IMG/VR virus record: IMGVR_UViG_3300027898_000001
DNA: 64,000 nucleotides
Strand: one strand, 5' to 3'
Source: a virus
Lineage: Duplodnaviria; Caudoviricetes
Below are positions 1,564 to 62,219 of this stretch, one piece after another. The notes beneath the pieces were generated by a model that was not told the DNA's origin, did no database searches, and saw only the letters and a list, made by a program, of their open reading frames with translations. Every line of letters begins with the position of its first letter. Within the stretch, counting starts at the first letter, position 1. The translations under genes and the position numbers were made by a program.

Positions 1564-1806
1564 TTAAGCCTTATAAAATTGAATGAAAGTAGTTTTTAAA
1601 AGTGGTTCATCTAACATAGGTATGCTGTTCTTTGTAAACCATGCATCTTTAGGTAGAACACGTTGTACGTACATTGGACTTAATCCATTGCGTTGTACAG
1701 CATACGCGCTAGATAAAAAGGTTTGAACATTGCTAGAACTGCCCATATTTACTTGATGTATAGCAATGTATATTTTAGATTTTCTTACTAAATCTCCAGA
1801 GTACAT
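1564..1806 (-). CDS. hypothetical protein
   Basis: ORF in operon, AGGG RBS-like sequence upstream. Confidence 0.65.
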   Translation of the reverse strand: MYSGDLVRKSKIYIAIHQVNMGSSSNVQTFLSSAYAVQRNGLSPMYVQRVLPKDAWFTKNSIPMLDEPLLKTTFIQFYKA

Positions 1807-1815
1807 AAATAAACC

Positions 1816-2103
1816 CTATTTTATTTCTTGCACAATATGCTCTGAGTTAGCACTTAAATTAATGTCTCTGTGGTTGTGCACATCAATAAGAAGTTTTGAA
1901 ATTTCATCATGTGTAAAGGTAAACAAATGATTCTCTTTACCTTCAATTGAAACGAGTTCGGCAGAAAGTGCAGCCGAATGCACAGCAGCATTACTTTTAC
2001 TCAATCGTTCTAAAATAAAACCAATCGCATATAGAATTCCTAGAACTACTAATGCTAATAAGGTTATTGCTCCAATTCCTGCTAGTATGTATAGTTTAAT
2101 CAT
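1816..2103 (-). CDS. hypothetical membrane protein
   Basis: N-terminal hydrophobic helix; ATGA overlap with the upstream gene; TAG stop. Confidence 0.7.
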   Translation of the reverse strand: MIKLYILAGIGAITLLALVVLGILYAIGFILERLSKSNAAVHSAALSAELVSIEGKENHLFTFTHDEISKLLIDVHNHRDINLSANSEHIVQEIK

Positions 2104-25363: not shown

Positions 25364-26953
25364 TTAGTTAGTAGCATTAACAAGACTTTGAGCGAATGTG
25401 ATCTGACCAGTTTTAGGTATGATTGCATTCAAATGGATACGTTTAGCTGGTAGTACAGGGTCAACATACACATCTAATATCAAATCACCATTAGCAATAT
25501 TCTCATTAGAATTGTTGCGATCATCACAAATAATTTCGTAACCGTACAGACCACGGCCACGTTTAATAGGTGCTAGAATACTATCACACAATGCTTTCAT
25601 ACTAATGCGCAAGAAAGTATCGTTAGGTTCATACACACCAACTAGTGAACTGTTTGCGATGCTGGTCTTCAACAAAGAAATCAAGCGACGGACGTTGATG
25701 TTTGATAATGCTGACGCGAACGATTGTAACGTATCAGCGCCCCAAACAACATAACCTTGTCCAGGCATAGAAATCAATGGGTTGATTTGATTGTCTGCAA
25801 ATAAATCACGATGACCTTGTTTGTATGCAACACGAAGACCTTGGACACTCAACTGACTACGTGTAATACCGGCAGGTGCGAACCAAGCAGCGGCTACACG
25901 ATCAGTACGGGCAAACACACCAGCAACATGACCAGAACACGGTATATACAAATTGTTTGCACGATCAGTATCACGTATAAGGATATCTGGAGCATATAAA
26001 GCACCATAAGAAGTGCTTACATTCAAAGTATCTCTACGCCAATTAACAGCGGCTTGTGCATCTTGTTGATCTGAAGGTACGTCTAAGATTGCAAAACAAT
26101 CATCACGTTCCGCAGCAATTTCTAACATACGTTGTTGGACGGTAACATCAGTATAACCGGCATTTATTAACAGGTTAACTGTAAGGTCTTCAACGTCACG
26201 GAACACTTCCCACGCATTAGCAATATCCGAAGTGGTAACCGCAGTTCCGTTATCACCTTGTGTTATACCACCACTTGTCAACGCATTTATTAACACCGCT
26301 TGTTCATTTACTAAGAAACTTGGGTGTTGACGATTAACAAGGACATGAATACGCTTCGACGTTTCTGTCAGATTTTCGATATTCAGTTGCTTACCGAATC
26401 CATCCAATTTATCAAATAGCGTAGCACGATAACTTTCAACTGCAACGGAACTACTACCTTCAAATACGTTCAACACAAAGCCTTGATTGCTTGCGTCGTT
26501 TGTATCAGGATAAATAAGTACACGCAAATTGTTGTTCCAATCGCCCGGATTATCTGCGTAAATCCACATAATATCGTTTGTATCAAAAACAATATCAGCG
26601 GCACTATTAAGTCCTACTGTGAACGGAACAGTTGTGCTGAAATTGTTGACAGTAGCTACTTTAATGCCACCCAATTTAGCGTTGTTTGCAATCCGTACAA
26701 CATACAATTGGCTACTGTCTTCTAAGAATGCAGTGGCACAATAGTGCATGTAAGTGAGTGTGGGATCTGATACACCATATTGTGCGTTCAAATCTGTTTT
26801 ATCTACAACTAAACTCGCTACACCTACGGGACCCTTGTGAGAAGGTCCAACGATAGCACCAATACTGGTCGGAGCTGCTGTAGTTCTTACCGTATCATCG
26901 ACTTCTCCGGTGTACACGCCGGCGCTTGTACTGGAGCCTGAATTTATAGACAT
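25364..26953 (-). CDS. tail sheath protein 1
   Basis: SAGVY...GPVG, WFAPAG, QINP, VWGADT, INVRRL, YEPND, VDPVLPAKRI. Confidence 0.93.
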   Translation of the reverse strand: MSINSGSSTSAGVYTGEVDDTVRTTAAPTSIGAIVGPSHKGPVGVASLVVDKTDLNAQYGVSDPTLTYMHYCATAFLEDSSQLYVVRIANNAKLGGIKVATVNNFSTTVPFTVGLNSAADIVFDTNDIMWIYADNPGDWNNNLRVLIYPDTNDASNQGFVLNVFEGSSSVAVESYRATLFDKLDGFGKQLNIENLTETSKRIHVLVNRQHPSFLVNEQAVLINALTSGGITQGDNGTAVTTSDIANAWEVFRDVEDLTVNLLINAGYTDVTVQQRMLEIAAERDDCFAILDVPSDQQDAQAAVNWRRDTLNVSTSYGALYAPDILIRDTDRANNLYIPCSGHVAGVFARTDRVAAAWFAPAGITRSQLSVQGLRVAYKQGHRDLFADNQINPLISMPGQGYVVWGADTLQSFASALSNINVRRLISLLKTSIANSSLVGVYEPNDTFLRISMKALCDSILAPIKRGRGLYGYEIICDDRNNSNENIANGDLILDVYVDPVLPAKRIHLNAIIPKTGQITFAQSLVNATN

Positions 26954-40566: not shown

Positions 40567-40803
40567 TCACCGTTCGAAATGTTTATTAGTAGTTATATCT
40601 ATTTTGAAGTGTTGTAGCATAAAGGTAGCCGCAGATCGCTCCGAAGCAACTTGTTTACCATTAGAATCAATATAACCGCTAACAGTCATTGCATCATAAC
40701 AAGATCGCGCATGTGCAATATACCAATCATAGGCAAAGTCTTCGTTGATTTGTAATGACTGCCGTAGTATCTCAAAAGAATTACGGTTATAGTGTTTGTC
40801 CAT
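40567..40803 (-). CDS. hypothetical phage protein
   Basis: TAATG coupling to the HAD gene. Confidence 0.7.
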   Translation of the reverse strand: MDKHYNRNSFEILRQSLQINEDFAYDWYIAHARSCYDAMTVSGYIDSNGKQVASERSAATFMLQHFKIDITTNKHFER

Positions 40804-41243
40804 TATAGCACCACTTTATCCCAATCAACATACGGTCTTGGTTTAGGCTCTAACGCAGTACCTGCAGGGTATATTAGAGGGCAACCATAAGCGGCATCAT
40901 CAATATACACTTGAGCATACGCTTTAGGTGATTCTGTCCATCCAGCTTGTGTGGGGTTCTGATTGATACCATATAACTCGATACCATTATCTCGTAAATA
41001 GTTGACAGCTTGTGAAAGCATATCACCATCTGGCCCACCATCACTGCGCATAGTCCAAAGAATAATCTTGTAGCCTTTTGACATGAAACTACGAAGTTTA
41101 TCTAAAGCGCCGGGTACAGGTTCACCGAGATTCGGATAACGGTGAGTGACAATAGTACCATCGAAATCAACTGCAACCAACATATAAATGTCCCTTAGTG
41201 CTCTAGCAACACTGGAAGATGAAAGATCAATTTGTATTTCCAT
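40803..41243 (-). CDS. HAD-superfamily hydrolase
   Basis: VAVDFDGTIV, ILWTMR, YIDD motifs I, II and IV. Confidence 0.85.
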   Translation of the reverse strand: MEIQIDLSSSSVARALRDIYMLVAVDFDGTIVTHRYPNLGEPVPGALDKLRSFMSKGYKIILWTMRSDGGPDGDMLSQAVNYLRDNGIELYGINQNPTQAGWTESPKAYAQVYIDDAAYGCPLIYPAGTALEPKPRPYVDWDKVVL

Positions 41244-41252
41244 AATAATCTA

Positions 41253-41588
41253 CTAATTGAAGATTTGTGGGAATAAATGTGCGAATGGATTATGGTAAGG
41301 TACAAACAATCCACGTAATATTTGACTGCCGTCCTCACCACGAGAATATATTTCTGTCTTACCTAACTCAACTAATTCTAAATAGCGCGGCATGTGCATA
41401 GAACTTTGATACGTTGTACGCAACACAGACGCTATAGCTGTTATCGAACACTCTGACATGGGCATATCAACCAACGCCTGTTGTAATTCATCAAATTGTT
41501 GTGTGCGGTGTAACTTACGCAATGCAGAAATGATTGGGAGCAATTCCACGGCAGTTTCTGCTTGTAAATCAAATTGCTTCCAAAACAT
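41253..41588 (-). CDS. hypothetical protein
   Basis: GAGG RBS; ends TAG TAG. Confidence 0.7.
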   Translation of the reverse strand: MFWKQFDLQAETAVELLPIISALRKLHRTQQFDELQQALVDMPMSECSITAIASVLRTTYQSSMHMPRYLELVELGKTEIYSRGEDGSQILRGLFVPYHNPFAHLFPQIFN

Positions 41589-41595
41589 AATAACC

Positions 41596-41946
41596 TCAAA
41601 TTAATTTGCCGAAACTTAATACTATCCTACAACCTTTTTCGATAGGTGTAACATGGTGATAACTAGTGTCTGCGCGAAAGAAATAGAATCGCTCTCGCCA
41701 TTGCCAAAGCATCTTAGGACACACAAACTTACCGCCAACATAGGCTTTCCACAATTCGATATTGAATCTATACATAGCCTGACCATTTGAAGGGTCTTTA
41801 TGCTTTGGTATATAACTACCTTCTTTGTAGTAAAACAAATAGCAGTCGAATCCAAATCGTTTAGAAAAGGCTAGTGTGAATATACGATAACCAGTATCGT
41901 GAACATCATTACCCCATCTAAATAGTTTTAGGGTAGGTTTAATCAA
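41596..41946 (-). CDS. 2OG-Fe(II) oxygenase
   Basis: PKHKD (HxD), YHHVTPI (His), RIVLSF (RxS-like). Confidence 0.8.
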   Translation of the reverse strand: MIKPTLKLFRWGNDVHDTGYRIFTLAFSKRFGFDCYLFYYKEGSYIPKHKDPSNGQAMYRFNIELWKAYVGGKFVCPKMLWQWRERFYFFRADTSYHHVTPIEKGCRIVLSFGKLI

Positions 41947-41956
41947 TCGGCGTTTA

Positions 41957-42595
41957 TTAATCTATGTCATGGCAGTTCTCGTCATCTTGGTGTGTTTTAA
42001 CAGATAAGACTTTTACGCCCTCTGATTCTTGTAAATCAACTAACTTGCACGTAACACCAGTTTGTGTGACAACTACACCACCCGTAATGTGTACGTTGGA
42101 GAAGGCTTCTTGTAAGTGTTCAATATCTGCTTTAGTGGGTAAATATGTATCATCACCTACGATAACATGCAATATGGTACGTTTTGCAAACTTTAGCTTA
42201 TCAGCAACATCGCCAGACAACGATGGACCGTTGTCTTCCATAGTAACAGATACAGTAGGTTCTATAGTATGTCTAATATCCCAAGTACCATTACCAGCAT
42301 AACCTTTTTTAAGTACAGCTGGATTAAAAGAAATCTCAAGCATACCATCGTCACGTTTAACTAATTGAATGCTCTTAGCAGCTATGGTGCGCACTTCTTT
42401 CTGTACAAGGTCATCAACAATCGCGGATAGAACACGATCAGCACTATCCAAATCTTTACAAGTGCGAATGTACGGAATATATTCGATAGGCTCTGCTAAT
42501 TCTTCACCTTCTTCCATAAGACAGAATCTAATATTCTTAGCTTTCAACAAAATACCTAGCGCGAAGTCTAGGTTGTGTTCTACAATTGCACTCAT
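41957..42595 (-). CDS. hypothetical protein, C-terminus resembling a portal clip segment
   Basis: ILHVIVGDDTYLPT...GVVVTQTGV; see findings. Confidence 0.6.
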   Translation of the reverse strand: MSAIVEHNLDFALGILLKAKNIRFCLMEEGEELAEPIEYIPYIRTCKDLDSADRVLSAIVDDLVQKEVRTIAAKSIQLVKRDDGMLEISFNPAVLKKGYAGNGTWDIRHTIEPTVSVTMEDNGPSLSGDVADKLKFAKRTILHVIVGDDTYLPTKADIEHLQEAFSNVHITGGVVVTQTGVTCKLVDLQESEGVKVLSVKTHQDDENCHDID

Positions 42596-42624: not shown

Positions 42625-42694
42625 TGGCTCTACGCCAGGGAATCGAACCCTGCTGAGTCGGTTTTAGAGGCCGGTCAGGCTACCTGCGCATAGA
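42625..42694 (-). tRNA. 70-nt amber-suppressor tRNA (anticodon CUA) with tRNA-Pyl-like architecture
   Basis: TCTATGC G CAGG TAG CCTG A CCGGC CTCTAAA ACCGACT CAG CAGGG TTCGATT CCCTG GCGTAGA G CCA: acceptor 7 bp, T arm and CCA intact; anticodon at 42665-42667. Confidence 0.8.
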
Positions 42695-42698
42695 ATAA

Positions 42699-44126
42699 TT
42701 ATAAAGCGGTTAAAAACACCTTGTTTGCAGAACCTTGTGAAGTACCTGATATTAAGGTCTTACCAGATGCCGAAATACTGTTAGTAGAGCCAAAGTATTT
42801 AGCATAGAAAGTACCGTGCGTTGCTGATAATATTGTAGGTGCCGCTATTATCTTATTTACAGTAATTGGGAAATTAGGAGGAGACGCAGTTGTATCCCAC
42901 ACGTATTCTTTAATCACACCAGAATAATAAGCTGCTGGCCAAGCATAACCGCCAGTATCCGTGTATGTTGTAGTAGATAATGTTCTATAACTTTTTGAAC
43001 CATCTTTGTTTAAACCAACAGCTTCAATGTATGCTAAATAAGGACTACCGTCATACGATGGAAACGATGGGAAGTTTAAACTTCCATTTGATGTTCTATC
43101 CCAGTTTATTTTCGTATACAACCCGGTACCTGGTTGGCCTATAGTAGCTGCTACACGTAATCCATTTTCTGATAATGAATGTACTCTAGTGGGGTTCGCA
43201 TACGAGCCCGAAACAGTAAAACTGCCAGATGTGGTTGAATAGGTTTGTTGCGTCCAGTTAACTAGACCGTTGTACTTCCAAATAGATACCTGTGATTTCC
43301 AGTTAGTGGATTGTAGTACCTGTTGCCATTGCAGTGTTATAGCAATCGTGTAACAGTCTGGAGTAGTTGCTACGTTAAATATTGCACGACCTCCATTAAT
43401 AGCTGGAGATTCCCCATTTGCTACAGGTACTATCTTTTGCGCTAAGTTCCAAACATCACCAGCACCTCGCATGTAAACATATACGGCACCCATTGTAGTA
43501 GATGTGGTGTTTGATGCTGTGCCTGTACTCTCATCGAAAGCATTGTTGAAAACAATTATATTACCATAAGTGTTTAGACGGCAAAAATTAATACTGTTTC
43601 TAGTGCCCGCAGATGTGGTTATAGCTACACTGAATGTGAATACGTTATTTACCCGTAAATACACAAGAACATAAGATTTATTAGAACCCGTTCTTGCTGC
43701 TAAGATAGTAAGAGTGTTACCATCACTAGACAGAGACAGTGGATTCATATTAAATCCAGAAGCGTCCGCAGAGTTTATAAATCTGTACGGTGTTGCTTCT
43801 ACAGGAGGTAAAATAACTTGACTAACTGTCCACGTGTTATTACCATTGATAACATGATGCACACCGTTATTGTCATTTAATGTAGTGAATCCCACTGGAT
43901 TCATATCTGTATTGGTGTATACAACTATAGCACCATTACCATTTGTAGTATATGATTGTATTGCAAGGGTGTTACGTTGCTCTGAAATCGCATACGCACT
44001 ACCGAATGATCCTGGAGAACTTAACCCGTACGAAGATAGAGTTGGATCAGTAGGTAAGGCAAATTCTACACCGTATGTGACACCCTGTGGGATAAATCCA
44101 GAATATCCAGTTTTAAATAACAACAT
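42699..44126 (-). CDS. beta-propeller-like virion/adhesin protein
   Basis: FG-GAP-like FGSAYAIS, GAVYVYMR, SLSSDG repeats. Confidence 0.6.
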   Translation of the reverse strand: MLLFKTGYSGFIPQGVTYGVEFALPTDPTLSSYGLSSPGSFGSAYAISEQRNTLAIQSYTTNGNGAIVVYTNTDMNPVGFTTLNDNNGVHHVINGNNTWTVSQVILPPVEATPYRFINSADASGFNMNPLSLSSDGNTLTILAARTGSNKSYVLVYLRVNNVFTFSVAITTSAGTRNSINFCRLNTYGNIIVFNNAFDESTGTASNTTSTTMGAVYVYMRGAGDVWNLAQKIVPVANGESPAINGGRAIFNVATTPDCYTIAITLQWQQVLQSTNWKSQVSIWKYNGLVNWTQQTYSTTSGSFTVSGSYANPTRVHSLSENGLRVAATIGQPGTGLYTKINWDRTSNGSLNFPSFPSYDGSPYLAYIEAVGLNKDGSKSYRTLSTTTYTDTGGYAWPAAYYSGVIKEYVWDTTASPPNFPITVNKIIAAPTILSATHGTFYAKYFGSTNSISASGKTLISGTSQGSANKVFLTAL

Positions 44127-60491: not shown

Positions 60492-62120
60492 TTATTCAGA
60501 GAATTTAGTGCCAGTTGGTTGAATAAACGCAGTCAAGTGGATGCGTTTAACTGCAATTACAGGATCGGCGTACACATCTAGTATCAAGTCACCTGAAGCT
60601 ATAGTATCAGGTAAGTTGTTTCTATCGTCACACACAACATCATACGCATTCAAACCTCGACCTTGTTTAATAGGTTCTAGGAAAGATGAAGTGATACCGC
60701 GAAGCTGTTTGCGCAAGAACTCATCATTAGGATCGAACACACCAAACGCTACAGAAGTAGAAATAGATTTCTTGATATAGTTAAACAAACGGCGCACGTT
60801 CACATGTTGTGTAGCACTTGGTTGTGTTTGTAGAGTAGCTTGTCCCCAAATAACATAACCACGACCTGGAATAAATCTGATACAGTTGATCTGTGCTTGA
60901 TCCAAAGCATCACGGGCACCTTGATTATACTTCTTACGAATATCACGAATTTGTAATTGTCCGCGATTCAAACCAGCTGGTGCAAACCAAAGAGCGCGCT
61001 CTGAATCTGTACGCGCGAAAGCTGCGGAAACAAGACCAGATGGTGGCATCCAAACTTTTTTGTCATTGTCTGTGTCATCAATTTGAACCCAAGGTCCATA
61101 AATACCACCGTAACTATCATTGATGTTTAAATCGTTTCTACGGTAGTTTACTGCATCTGAAACTTCTGCCGCAGCATCAGGCATATCTAAGATAGCGAAG
61201 GCATCAAAACGATTACGAGCAACATCAACCATAACACGTTGTACAACAGGGTTCGCATAACCACCATTAACTAATAGGTTAACGTCGATGTGTTCTGCGT
61301 CATCATATAACTGCCACGCATTAGCTATTTGATCTGTAGTTACAGGCAAACCATCTGTAGCACCTGATAAGAATTGGAATGGTGCTGTGAGTACGGGCAC
61401 GATTTTGCAATAAGGGTTATTACGTACACGAATATATTTAGAACGTGTATTGATAACGTCTTCTACAAACAAGCCACTACCATCAGTATTAACTTCACCA
61501 ACGGTACGTGATACTAAGAATGATTCTACAGGTACGTTATTCGGCCCTGTGTAGTTGTAGAATACGTCAATATAGAAATGGTTTACGTTGTGGTCAGAAC
61601 CTACATTACGACCTTTTGGATTACTTGGACGTATACCAATAGCAATGTTGTTATTCCAAGCACCCGGATTCGCTGCGCAAATGAACATTAAGTCATTGTT
61701 TATATCAGCATCACCTGGATTAAAGCCTAAATTTGTAAACGGATCATCTTTACCTAATGGTACGTTTGAACCATTATCGAAGTTATTTAAAGCCAGTCTT
61801 GGAGTTTGTGCAGTTGGATCATCTACAGTAAGATAAGCACCTGCTGTAAGTGCTCCGTTAACAACACGGGTAATATACATACGGGAACTGACTTTACTGA
61901 ATTGTTTAGCACAAAGCAGCATAAATCCGTACTTACCGGCGTTAGGTTTACCAAATGTGTTATCAAGTTCCGTAGTGTCTGTGATGAGAGTACGTTCACC
62001 TACAGGTCCACGTCCTGCTGCACCAACAAAGGCACCAATCGAAGACGCGACTGAGGCAACACGCTGAGAAAGATCAATTTCGTTGGTGTAAACACCAGCA
62101 CTGGGGAAAACTGTATTCAT
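60492..62120 (-). CDS. tail sheath protein 2
   Basis: FPSAGVY...RGPVG, WFAPAGLNRG, QINCI, IWGQAT, VNVRRL, FDPND; ATG at 62120 after AGGA. Confidence 0.93.
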   Translation of the reverse strand: MNTVFPSAGVYTNEIDLSQRVASVASSIGAFVGAAGRGPVGERTLITDTTELDNTFGKPNAGKYGFMLLCAKQFSKVSSRMYITRVVNGALTAGAYLTVDDPTAQTPRLALNNFDNGSNVPLGKDDPFTNLGFNPGDADINNDLMFICAANPGAWNNNIAIGIRPSNPKGRNVGSDHNVNHFYIDVFYNYTGPNNVPVESFLVSRTVGEVNTDGSGLFVEDVINTRSKYIRVRNNPYCKIVPVLTAPFQFLSGATDGLPVTTDQIANAWQLYDDAEHIDVNLLVNGGYANPVVQRVMVDVARNRFDAFAILDMPDAAAEVSDAVNYRRNDLNINDSYGGIYGPWVQIDDTDNDKKVWMPPSGLVSAAFARTDSERALWFAPAGLNRGQLQIRDIRKKYNQGARDALDQAQINCIRFIPGRGYVIWGQATLQTQPSATQHVNVRRLFNYIKKSISTSVAFGVFDPNDEFLRKQLRGITSSFLEPIKQGRGLNAYDVVCDDRNNLPDTIASGDLILDVYADPVIAVKRIHLTAFIQPTGTKFSE

Positions 62121-62219
62121 AGAAAATGTCCTATTCACGTTTCTGGTTTAGTTGGTATAGAAACACAAAGTTCTAATTCAACACACAGTAAATTAGCGAA
62201 TAGGATGTTGGAATACGTT

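What the first reader, a model, noticed from the sequence alone, without database searches (positions are those of the whole stretch)
42625..42694. Amber-anticodon tRNA built like tRNA-Pyl in a phage that uses the standard code
Seen: a 70-nt tRNA with a single nucleotide between acceptor and D stems, a 4-bp D stem with a 3-nt loop lacking G18G19, anticodon loop CUCUAAA, a broken anticodon stem (three central pairs, C-A at 31-39, extra bases on the 3' side), a 3-nt variable loop CAG, discriminator G73 and encoded CCA. Established: this combination defines pyrrolysine tRNAs, especially the compact Methanomassiliicoccales type. Ordinary phage amber suppressors are canonical Gln/Trp/Tyr-derived cloverleaves. 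Differences from tRNA-Pyl: U1-A72 rather than G1-C72 (as in tRNA-Gln/Asn), and no PylRS or pylBCD in this window. Inference: an orthogonal or Gln-charged suppressor, a decoy for host anticodon nucleases or PylRS-like enzymes, or a horizontally captured tRNA-Pyl relic. The weak anticodon stem means it could be decaying.
Basis: partly seen in the sequence, partly recalled or inferred. Interest (0 to 1): 0.85.

Follow-up and report, generated by a model that had tools for sequence, protein, structure and literature searches.

The report
D-armless amber tRNA gating neighbour gene
This freshwater jumbo phage carries a real but oddly built tRNA that reads the stop codon UAG; it is not a pyrrolysine tRNA, and it most likely exists to read one deliberate UAG at the start of a nearby small enzyme gene, a pairing kept in at least 14 phage lineages, two of them cultured.

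Summary
The 70-nt tRNA-like gene at 42625-42694 (minus strand) is real. It has a perfect acceptor stem, a canonical T arm, a CUCUAAA loop, G73 and an encoded CCA. The tRNA-Pyl reading fails. Across 12 lineages the proposed D hairpin is not conserved. Instead, four bases of the D region pair with the would-be variable loop and extend the anticodon helix (47 of 48 cells paired, strong covariation). A conserved linker GG covaries with T-loop C56, so the tRNA elbow is kept. No PylRS was found in complete relatives.

The RNA is linked to a 116-124-aa cupin/2OG-oxygenase-like gene (window 41596-41970). In 14 lineages, including cultured Xanthomonas phage XaC1 and Vibrio phage nt-1, this gene has an in-frame TAG 1-6 codons after its start. 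Homologs without the tRNA have Gln at that position.

Best reading: a dedicated, probably Gln-inserting amber suppressor that gates one gene in a standard-code phage. Nothing is experimental.

This scan had already noted the amber-gated oxygenase module and rewired-D-arm or D-arm-less phage tRNAs on other DNA. I found no published description of either.

The parts
42625..42694 (-). Whole 70-nt amber-anticodon tRNA-like gene. It starts 4 nt after the TAA stop of the upstream ORF and ends 29 nt before the ATG of the next ORF.
   Evidence: (87.5 bits with model R1)
42688..42694 (-). Acceptor stem 5' strand (UCUAUGC). It pairs with 42629-42635; all 7 pairs are formed.
   Evidence: acceptor covaries at 7 of 7 pairs in 12 lineages
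42679..42687 (-). 9-nt linker GCAGGUAGC that replaces the D arm. Its GG (42684-42683) is conserved and acts as G18G19.
   Evidence: GG with U55-C56 in 12 members; GA with U55-U56 in 2
42675..42678 (-). CUGA, the 5' strand of the 4-bp helix that extends the anticodon stem.
   Evidence: 47 of 48 cells paired, 4-5 pair types per position
42658..42674 (-). Anticodon arm CCGGC-CUCUAAA-ACCGA. The anticodon CUA is at 42667-42665. C27.A43 and C31.A39 are unpaired.
   Evidence: 31.39 unpaired in 9 of 12 lineages, 27.43 in 7 of 12
42653..42657 (-). Bulged C (42657) followed by UCAG (42656-42653), the 3' strand of the extension helix.
42636..42652 (-). T arm CAGGG-UUCGAUU-CCCUG, canonical.
42625..42635 (-). 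Acceptor 3' strand GCGUAGA, discriminator G (42628) and encoded CCA (42627-42625).
41957..42595 (-). Orphan 212-aa ORF between the tRNA and its client gene. It has no homologs. L232 and L236 also have unrelated ORFs inserted at this place.
41596..41970 (-). Client gene: a cupin/2OG-Fe(II)-oxygenase-like protein (phrog_13746). Read from ATG 41970-41968 through the in-frame TAG at 41964-41962 it is 124 codons. Gene callers start it at TTG 41946 (116 aa).
41962..41964 (-). In-frame amber codon (codon 3) of the client gene, followed by A.

Best explanation
This is a functional amber-suppressor tRNA of a non-canonical 'rewired D arm' build. There is no D stem-loop. A 9-nt linker keeps the GG that docks on the T loop. 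The four bases that would form the 3' half of the D stem instead pair with the would-be variable loop, stacking a 4-bp helix onto a weak 3-bp anticodon stem. This should keep the L-shape dimensions. Its main job is to read one deliberate UAG placed at codon 3 of a nearby cupin/2OG-oxygenase-like gene, so the enzyme is made only when the phage's own tRNA is present, processed and charged: a one-codon translational gate with its own key. The residue inserted is probably glutamine, charged by host GlnRS through U35. Shown: the RNA's conservation and fold by covariation, the conserved TAG in the client gene, their co-occurrence, and Gln at that position in tRNA-less homologs. Inferred: transcription and processing, aminoacylation, decoding on the ribosome, the residue inserted, and why a gate is useful.
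For: RNA reality and fold: model R1 scores 87.5 bits (window), 86.6 (L043) and 83.5 (XaC1), against 51 bits or less for hundreds of ordinary tRNAs in about 1.5 Mb of loci. On 12 lineages, 90.8% of cells pair, 0 of 500 shuffles reach this and slid controls give 30-43%; the extension helix pairs in 47 of 48 cells with 4-5 pair types per position. The tertiary 19-56 pair covaries (GG/C56 12 times, GA/U56 twice).
Linkage: members were found through the protein, not the anticodon, yet all carry CUA. They lie next to the protein gene in XaC1, L225, L227, L230/231, L233, L234 and L235 (17-51 nt upstream of its start), the L116 group (166 nt), L232, L236 and the window (610-934 nt), and nt-1 and L229 (just downstream).
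Gate: an SD-plus-ATG/GTG start (the SD is only weak in the window itself), then 1-6 codons, then TAG, then the conserved motif KP[TS]L[KR]..[RK]WG in frame, in 14 lineages. In L228, L232, L233, L234 and nt-1 no other start keeps about 35 conserved residues. Between TAG and TTG the window and L225 agree at protein level with synonymous codon changes.
Co-variation: five lineages without an intact CUA tRNA (L226, FLC9, RP12, Lu11, HRDY3) lack the gate. L226 has a relic RNA with a 10-nt loop.
Gln: TAG aligns with natural Gln in P0010, P0011 and P0016/17. 13 of 14 TAGs are followed by A, a context that classical E. coli work found to favour suppression (own knowledge).
Against: There is no experimental evidence of any kind: no RNA data were available for this phage, and aminoacylation and decoding are untested. 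The anticodon stem has only three standard pairs and 31.39 is usually unpaired, which is unusual for an efficient decoder. No D-stem-less tRNA has been shown to work on a bacterial ribosome with bacterial EF-Tu, as far as I found. In the window itself, TTG 41946 could serve as an ordinary start, possibly coupled to the stop of the preceding ORF, and neither upstream ATG has a strong Shine-Dalgarno site. So the gate is less compelling here than in XaC1, L228 or L234. The phage still ends about 9% of its genes in TAG (7 of 75 in the window), so an efficient suppressor would have a cost. The tRNA/TAG association (14 against 5, Fisher p about 1e-4) is not corrected for shared ancestry. The Gln inference rests on three or four homologs in a poorly conserved, Lys-rich tail.
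Confidence: 0.68

Rival explanations
1. A tRNA-shaped RNA that does not decode. It would be a processing signal (RNase P/Z cut site), a 5'-leader element or a partner of the cupin enzyme. The short ORF ending in TAG would then be a leader peptide, and the enzyme would start by termination-reinitiation just after it.
For: In seven lineages the RNA ends only 17-51 nt before the start codon of the mini-ORF. In the window it is wedged 4 nt after one ORF and 29 nt before the next. The anticodon stem is weak. The codon after TAG is AUU or AUA in 8 of 14 lineages, a possible weak restart codon. There is no evidence of charging.
Against: The CUA anticodon, U33 and A37 are kept in all members although they were found through the protein. 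CCA is encoded in nearly all. The RNA can lie downstream of the gene (nt-1, L229) or 600-900 nt away (window, L232, L236), so it is not a fixed leader. Six lineages have ACC, ACU, AAC, AAA or GUC after TAG, which are not start codons. tRNA-less homologs replace TAG with a Gln codon instead of keeping the leader. L228 uses a more canonical CUA tRNA with the same gate.
Confidence: 0.14
2. A general amber suppressor used against the host or for many phage genes. The oxygenase-like gene would be only one client or a by-stander.
For: Suppressor tRNAs are reported in standard-code jumbo phages with unknown targets. Hundreds of canonical CUA tRNAs occur in viral contigs. Two window genes ending in TAG are in frame with the next ORF.
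Against: Apart from the client gene, the window has no gene interrupted by TAG, and recoding TAG barely raises ORF coverage (0.945 to 0.964). The candidate fusions have no support from homologs. The only gene shared by the otherwise unrelated carrier loci is the gated one, so the pair moves as a unit.
Confidence: 0.1
3. A decaying tRNA pseudogene with no function.
For: It is missed by Rfam and mis-called by ARAGORN. It has two C.A mismatches in the anticodon stem and a shrunken D region. Its thermodynamic fold is no better than shuffled sequence (z = -0.63).
Against: Compensatory changes occur in all helices across 12 lineages, acceptor and T arms are perfect in every member, the anticodon is invariant and the tertiary 19-56 pair covaries. 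An identical copy occurs in a metagenome from another study and year. L226 shows what a true relic looks like (15 bits, swollen loop).
Confidence: 0.05
4. A tRNA-Pyl homolog or captured relic that works with a PylRS-like enzyme.
For: CUA anticodon, compact body, G73 and encoded CCA, one client gene with a single in-frame UAG, and the same CUCUAAA loop as tRNA-Pyl (own knowledge of tRNA-Pyl sequences).
Against: The D stem-loop, 6-bp anticodon stem and 3-nt variable loop are absent. The T loop is canonical and the GG contact is kept. The 1-72 pair and the discriminator vary among members. No PylS match was found in XaC1, nt-1 or a 100%-complete 311-kb relative, while the control rings in Methanosarcina. 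Homologs have Gln at the TAG position.
Confidence: 0.03

Closest known systems
Phage-encoded Sup(CUA) tRNAs of TAG-recoded ('code 15', TAG=Gln) phages such as crAss-like and Lak phages (e.g. PMC9523058; Borges et al. 2022, own knowledge)
   Same: A phage-borne CUA tRNA that probably inserts Gln at in-frame TAG codons of phage genes.
   Different: In those phages many late genes are recoded and the tRNAs are ordinary cloverleaves. Here the genome uses the standard code, one gene has one TAG near its start, and the tRNA lacks a D stem-loop.
E. coli amber suppressors supE (tRNA-Gln CUA) and su+7 (tRNA-Trp CUA, charged mainly with Gln) (own knowledge)
   Same: CUA anticodon. The anticodon arm CCGG-N CUCUAAA ACCG-N is the tRNA-Trp/Gln type. 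U1-A72 and G73 in the window copy resemble GlnRS identity elements.
   Different: Those are point mutants of canonical tRNAs. This one is a conserved natural gene with a rebuilt core, and the acceptor identity elements vary between members.
tRNA-Pyl (pylT) with the single in-frame UAG of methylamine methyltransferase genes
   Same: A compact CUA tRNA encoded near a gene that carries one in-frame UAG.
   Different: There is no PylRS and no tRNA-Pyl core (D stem, 6-bp anticodon stem, 3-nt variable loop, non-canonical T loop). The residue is most likely an ordinary Gln at a non-catalytic N-terminal position.
D-arm-lacking mitochondrial tRNAs, e.g. metazoan mt-tRNA-Ser(AGY) and nematode D-armless Ser tRNAs (PMC1636415, PMC12221289)
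   Same: The D stem-loop is replaced by a short connector while the acceptor/T domain and a longer anticodon helix preserve the overall geometry.
   Different: Those tRNAs are organellar, often need adapted EF-Tu, and have usually lost the D-loop/T-loop contact. Here the T loop is canonical and the GG-T-loop contact covaries, in a phage that uses bacterial machinery.
prfB (RF2) autoregulation through an early in-frame UGA (own knowledge)
   Same: A stop codon placed early in a gene acts as a translational gate that senses the state of the decoding machinery.
   Different: prfB uses a +1 frameshift and senses RF2. Here the gate would be opened by a dedicated suppressor tRNA encoded alongside.

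Membership tests
tRNA-Pyl | CUA anticodon in a CUCUAAA-type loop | tested here: met
tRNA-Pyl | True D stem (4-5 bp) with a small loop, one base after the acceptor stem | tested here: not met
   The hairpin can be drawn in the window copy only. It pairs in 52.5% of cells across 12 lineages. The competing extension helix pairs in 47 of 48 cells.
tRNA-Pyl | 6-bp anticodon stem and 3-nt variable loop | tested here: not met
   There are three standard pairs flanked by mismatches, and the 'variable' bases pair with the D-region 3' strand.
tRNA-Pyl | D loop without G18G19 and T loop without the T54-Psi55-C56 sequence | tested here: not met
   The T loop is UUCGAUU, and the linker GG is conserved and covaries with position 56.
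tRNA-Pyl | G73 and G1-C72 identity elements | tested here: not met
   The window has G73 but U1-A72. In the family the discriminator is A, G, U or C and the 1-72 pair varies.
tRNA-Pyl | Co-occurrence with PylRS and pylBCD | tested here: not met
   There is no TIGR02367 match in XaC1, nt-1 or a complete 311-kb relative, with a positive control. pylBCD was not searched for. The window's own genome beyond the 64 kb could not be searched, and within the window only about 23 ORFs were screened.
Canonical bacterial/phage tRNA (Rfam RF00005) | Cloverleaf with a D stem-loop that reaches the family's score | tested here: not met
   No hit at gathering score. The best clan hit is tRNA-Sec at 17.9 bits against a cut-off of 47. 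The D region is 13 nt against 17-22 nt in 155 CUA tRNAs.
Canonical bacterial/phage tRNA (Rfam RF00005) | 7-bp acceptor, 5-bp T stem with a UUCRANN loop, discriminator plus CCA, 7-nt anticodon loop with U33 and a purine at 37 | tested here: met
Phage suppressor tRNAs of recoded (code 15) phages | Genome-wide in-frame TAG in phage genes | tested here: not met
   The window is 94.5% covered by standard-code ORFs and TAG serves as a stop for 7 of 75 genes.
Phage suppressor tRNAs of recoded (code 15) phages | In-frame TAG that aligns with Gln in homologs | tested here: met
   Met for one gene only.
Amber-gated gene plus own suppressor tRNA cassette (earlier notes of this scan: e1-5319559, e1-5370690) | CUA tRNA on the same strand next to a conserved gene with a TAG within the first few codons after an SD-ATG | tested here: met
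   In the window the SD is weak and an orphan ORF lies in between.
   I did not test whether it is homologous to the sense-anticodon examples of that note.
2OG-Fe(II) oxygenase / cupin superfamily (client protein) | DSBH barrel with an HxD...H metal triad and a basic residue for 2OG | tested here: inconclusive
   H57-x-D59, H105 and R115 are invariant. The model is an all-beta barrel with pLDDT 89. Pfam hits are below cut-off (PF23169 17.2 bits, PF05118 13.2 bits; PF13640 weak in some homologs). Fold matches are generic cupins and AspH, PolD or NMAD-1 cores at TM 0.4-0.6.

The most novel reading that the evidence does not exclude
The pair is an autonomous, portable two-part translational switch. 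A structurally orthogonal, D-stem-less tRNA may escape host tRNA-targeting defences or be charged or modified in a special way. It controls a minimal 2OG-oxygenase-like enzyme that itself acts on the translation apparatus or on the tRNA, as OGFOD1/Tpa1, Jmjd4 or ALKBH-type enzymes do in other systems. That would close a feedback loop on stop-codon read-through during infection.
Probability: 0.1. Interest if true: 0.9.

Novelty: new variant of a known kind. Interest (0 to 1): 0.72.

Why it matters
(1) It would be a natural tRNA without a D stem-loop working with bacterial machinery, an architecture so far documented only in animal mitochondria. Standard finders miss it or mislabel it: Rfam finds nothing, ARAGORN calls it Phe(AAA), and it is unannotated in the published XaC1 and nt-1 genomes. 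Phage tRNA inventories and genetic-code inferences are therefore incomplete.

(2) It gives a concrete client for 'orphan' suppressor tRNAs of standard-code jumbo phages, whose targets the literature leaves open.

(3) A one-codon amber gate with its own key is a simple natural regulatory device, and a possible first step towards whole-genome TAG recoding.

(4) A compact natural suppressor scaffold with a rebuilt core is of interest for genetic-code expansion.

(5) It is directly testable, because Vibrio phage nt-1 on Vibrio natriegens and Xanthomonas phage XaC1 are in culture.

Tried and rejected
- Rfam at gathering score found nothing; at E-value threshold only tRNA-Sec (17.9 bits) and trivial T-arm matches.
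- The single-sequence fold is no better than shuffles.
- blastn of the locus and of the XaC1 RNA against 50,697 phage records found no relatives.
- The search for related loci with the 475-aa neighbour and with the ligase found none in IMG/VR. The 475-aa and 212-aa neighbours are orphans.
- No whole genome is held for the window, so the other 196 kb could not be searched.
- Sequencing runs: no RNA holder is listed. Laying contigs gave an identical copy in one other study and a 35-nt partial match to an unrelated contig. The likely source run laid nothing.
- PaBG and NCTB, the closest known phages, have no such RNA at the syntenic place.
- Read-through fusions of window genes 2103-1564 and 41588-40803 have no support from homologs.
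- Pattern GGTAR-N5-YCGGYCTCTAAAACC gave 0 viral and 4 unrelated genome hits.
- The L115/L116/L144/L201 RNAs share the CUA loop, the short D region and the gated neighbour, but do not fit the extension helix. L031 is ambiguous (53 bits; ARAGORN gives a 75-nt form).
- Fold searches of the client protein gave only generic cupin/DSBH matches, so its substrate stays unknown.
- The 212-aa ORF of the window and the 204-aa ORF at the same place in L232 are unrelated.

Full report
**What is at the coordinates.** On the minus strand of 42625-42694 lies a 70-nt tRNA-shaped gene.
- The acceptor stem has 7 pairs (U1-A72 to C7-G66).
- The T arm is canonical (CAGGG-UUCGAUU-CCCUG).
- The discriminator is G and CCA is encoded.
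- The anticodon loop is CUCUAAA.

The gene starts 4 nt after the TAA of the upstream ORF (42699-44126) and ends 29 nt before the ATG of the next ORF. Rfam reports nothing at gathering score. The best weak hit is tRNA-Sec at 17.9 bits, E 0.44. ARAGORN calls the gene tRNA-Phe(AAA) in a shifted register. The open questions were which fold is right and whether the gene is alive.

**Genome and code.** The window belongs to a ~260-kb freshwater jumbo myovirus distantly related to Pseudomonas phage PaBG, phage NCTB, Lu11 and HRDY3. Tail sheath identity is 41-51% and ligase identity 37-43%. It uses the standard code: ORFs are dense, stops are about 53 TAA, 15 TGA and 7 TAG, and reading TAG as sense raises ORF coverage only from 0.945 to 0.964. 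An identical copy of the tRNA region occurs in a metagenome from another study and year.

**Relatives of the RNA.** A pattern built from the anticodon loop and T arm found 81 loci, and a looser one found at least 117 viral loci. Nearly all are ordinary cloverleaf CUA tRNAs with a tRNA-Trp/Gln-type anticodon arm. In 155 of them the D region is 17-22 nt; the window's is 13 nt. C27.A43 is common in the canonical ones too, and C31.A39 also occurs in one canonical member, L045. L043 shares the window's exact dimensions.

**The link to a protein.** A local tblastn of all window proteins against all fetched loci gave one informative hit. The short-D CUA RNAs of L116, L144 and L201 are followed by a homolog (57% identity) of window ORF 41596-41946 (phrog_13746), and no other gene is shared. 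I then used the protein as the handle.
- In cultured Xanthomonas phage XaC1 an unannotated 70-nt CUA RNA lies 20 nt before the gene's start codon. The XaC1 paper lists 8 tRNAs and no suppressor (PMC11273794).
- Contigs encoding 11 further homologs were fetched, and a model of the RNA was run over them. Ten of them carry a CUA RNA beside or near the gene; one of these (L228) is of a more canonical type, 1.9 kb upstream. Vibrio phage nt-1 has one just downstream of the gene. The eleventh contig (L226) has only a relic.
- The more distant protein homologs in FLC9, RP12, Lu11 and HRDY3 have no such RNA.

**The fold.** The window, L043 and XaC1 copies align without gaps.

|---|---|---|
| 3 sequences | 12 of 12 cells paired, all four pairs change on both sides | 8 of 12 cells paired, no double-sided change |
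| 12 lineages | 47 of 48 cells paired, 4-5 pair types per position | 52.5% paired, slid controls 30-44% |

For the whole structure on 12 lineages, 90.8% of cells pair and 0 of 500 shuffles reach this. Positions 31.39 and 27.43 are unpaired in 9 and 7 of 12 lineages, so the 'broken' anticodon stem is a family trait. The 7-10-nt linker keeps a GG. In the two members whose T loop has U56 instead of C56 (nt-1 and L230), the linker has GA instead. This is covariation of the tertiary 19-56 pair, so the D-loop/T-loop elbow is kept.

The architecture is therefore:
- acceptor and T arms as usual;
- no D hairpin;
- a linker carrying the G18G19 equivalents;
- a 4-bp helix that takes the place of the D stem by stacking on a weak anticodon stem.

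The model of this fold scores 83-87 bits on its three founders, 33-62 bits on other members and 51 bits or less on ordinary tRNAs. It separates the closest members but not the distant ones.

**The client codon.** In 14 lineages the protein gene has the same layout: a Shine-Dalgarno site (only weak in the window), an ATG or GTG, 1-6 codons, a TAG, then in the same frame the conserved motif KP[TS]L[KR]..[RK]WG and the rest of the protein.
- Gene callers start downstream. In L228, L232, L233, L234 and nt-1 this cuts off about 35 conserved residues for lack of any other start codon.
- In the window the layout is ATG 41970, ACA, TAG 41964-41962, then I-N-K-R-R-L-I-K-P-T-L-K. L225 reads I-G-K-R-N-L-I-T-P-S-L-K at the same place, with synonymous codon differences and TTA where the window has TTG. 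The stretch between TAG and TTG is therefore under protein-level selection.
- The window case is weaker than the others. TTG 41946 could serve as a start, and the upstream ATGs lack a strong Shine-Dalgarno site.
- The five lineages without an intact CUA tRNA have no gate. L226 reads M-K-K-Q-I-G-K where L234 reads M-K-K-TAG-I-G-K, and it keeps only a relic RNA with a 10-nt loop.
- The 14-against-5 split gives Fisher p of about 1e-4, but this is not corrected for shared ancestry.

**Which residue.** TAG aligns with a natural Gln in P0010, P0011 and P0016/17. Thirteen of 14 TAGs are followed by A. Gln fits GlnRS recognition of U35, and in the window copy also U1-A72 and G73 (own knowledge). Acceptor features vary between members, so this remains an inference.

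**The protein.** It is a 110-124-aa all-beta barrel (AlphaFold pLDDT 89) with invariant H-x-D, H and R. Pfam hits to 2OG-oxygenase families are weak. Structural matches are generic, to small cupins and to AspH, PolD and NMAD-1 cores at TM 0.4-0.6. Its substrate is unknown.

**tRNA-Pyl.** Every structural hallmark fails except the CUA anticodon and the compact size; see the membership table. No PylS is found in XaC1, nt-1 or a 100%-complete 311-kb relative, with a positive control in Methanosarcina. The window's own remaining 196 kb could not be searched.

**Rivals.**
- A non-decoding tRNA-like leader with termination-reinitiation is the main alternative. It is disfavoured by the invariant anticodon, the variable position of the RNA, non-start codons after TAG in six lineages, and Gln codons in tRNA-less homologs.
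- A general suppressor role cannot be excluded, but no other interrupted gene is seen in the window.
- Decay is contradicted by the covariation.

**Known or new.** The library holds D-arm-less tRNAs only from mitochondria. Suppressor tRNAs of standard-code jumbo phages are reported without identified targets. This scan has already noted the same amber-gated oxygenase module (e1-5319559, e1-5370690), D-arm-less amber tRNAs before TAG-gated PTH-like genes (e1-5319185, e1-933198) and 'rewired D arm' phage tRNAs (e1-4046767) on other DNA. I reached the coupling independently. Those notes are AI leads, not evidence.

This report adds:
- the specific fold of this suppressor, with secondary and tertiary covariation;
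- the rejection of the tRNA-Pyl reading;
- the Gln alignment;
- two cultured phages in which the RNA is unannotated.

**Limits.** Everything is comparative. Expression, charging, decoding and the purpose of the gate are inferred.

Noticed in passing
window 41253-41588 (-): The gene just downstream of the gated gene ends in a tandem TAG-TAG and is in frame with the next ORF (40803-41243, a HAD/'phosphoheptose isomerase'-like protein that stands alone in other phages). A double amber stop could be a safeguard against the phage's own suppressor.
   Followed up: partly
window 1564-2103 (-): ORF 1816-2103 ends in TAG and is in frame with ORF 1564-1806. Read-through would give a 179-aa fusion. No homologs were found, so this stays undecided.
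   Followed up: partly
L226:2037-2111 (+): Next to the TAG-less (Gln) homolog of the gated gene lies a tRNA-like relic. Its acceptor, T arm and CCA are intact, but its 'anticodon loop' has 10 nt (15 bits with R1). It looks like a suppressor that decayed after its client codon was lost.
   Followed up: partly
L228:404-480 (+): This lineage has the same TAG-gated gene, but a more canonical 77-nt CUA tRNA with C33 (loop CCCUAAA) lies 1.9 kb upstream. The gate is therefore not tied to the rewired body.
   Followed up: no
L115, L116:5179-5249, L144, L201: A second kind of short-D CUA tRNA (15-nt D region, 4-nt variable loop GAAA) lies 166 nt upstream of the same gated gene. It does not fit the extension-helix fold, and ARAGORN finds nothing there.
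   Followed up: partly
L209:2182-2269 (XaC1 record 305983-306070): The annotated tRNA-Ser just upstream of the unannotated suppressor has the unusual anticodon ACU according to ARAGORN.
   Followed up: no
L236:2760-3116: A PTH2-family peptidyl-tRNA hydrolase gene lies 1.2 kb downstream of the gated oxygenase gene. This echoes earlier scan notes on CUA tRNAs paired with TAG-gated PTH-like genes.
   Followed up: no
window 25364-26953 and 60492-62138 (-): Two paralogous tail-sheath genes (phrog_23). The PaBG-like relatives also show two matching places each.
   Followed up: no
window 42861 (-): A TGTAAAYA motif, which other readers of this genome proposed as the phage's promoter box, lies 167 nt upstream of the tRNA inside the 3' end of the preceding ORF. 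It could drive the tRNA and the gated gene.
   Followed up: no
run X3, 269-nt contig matching window 42635-42669: An unrelated aquatic-metagenome contig shares 32 of 35 nt with the anticodon-3'/variable/T-arm part. Its flank seems to give a fully paired UUGGU/ACCGA stem around the same CUCUAAA loop. Its 5' half does not look canonical, and the contig could not be fetched.
   Followed up: partly
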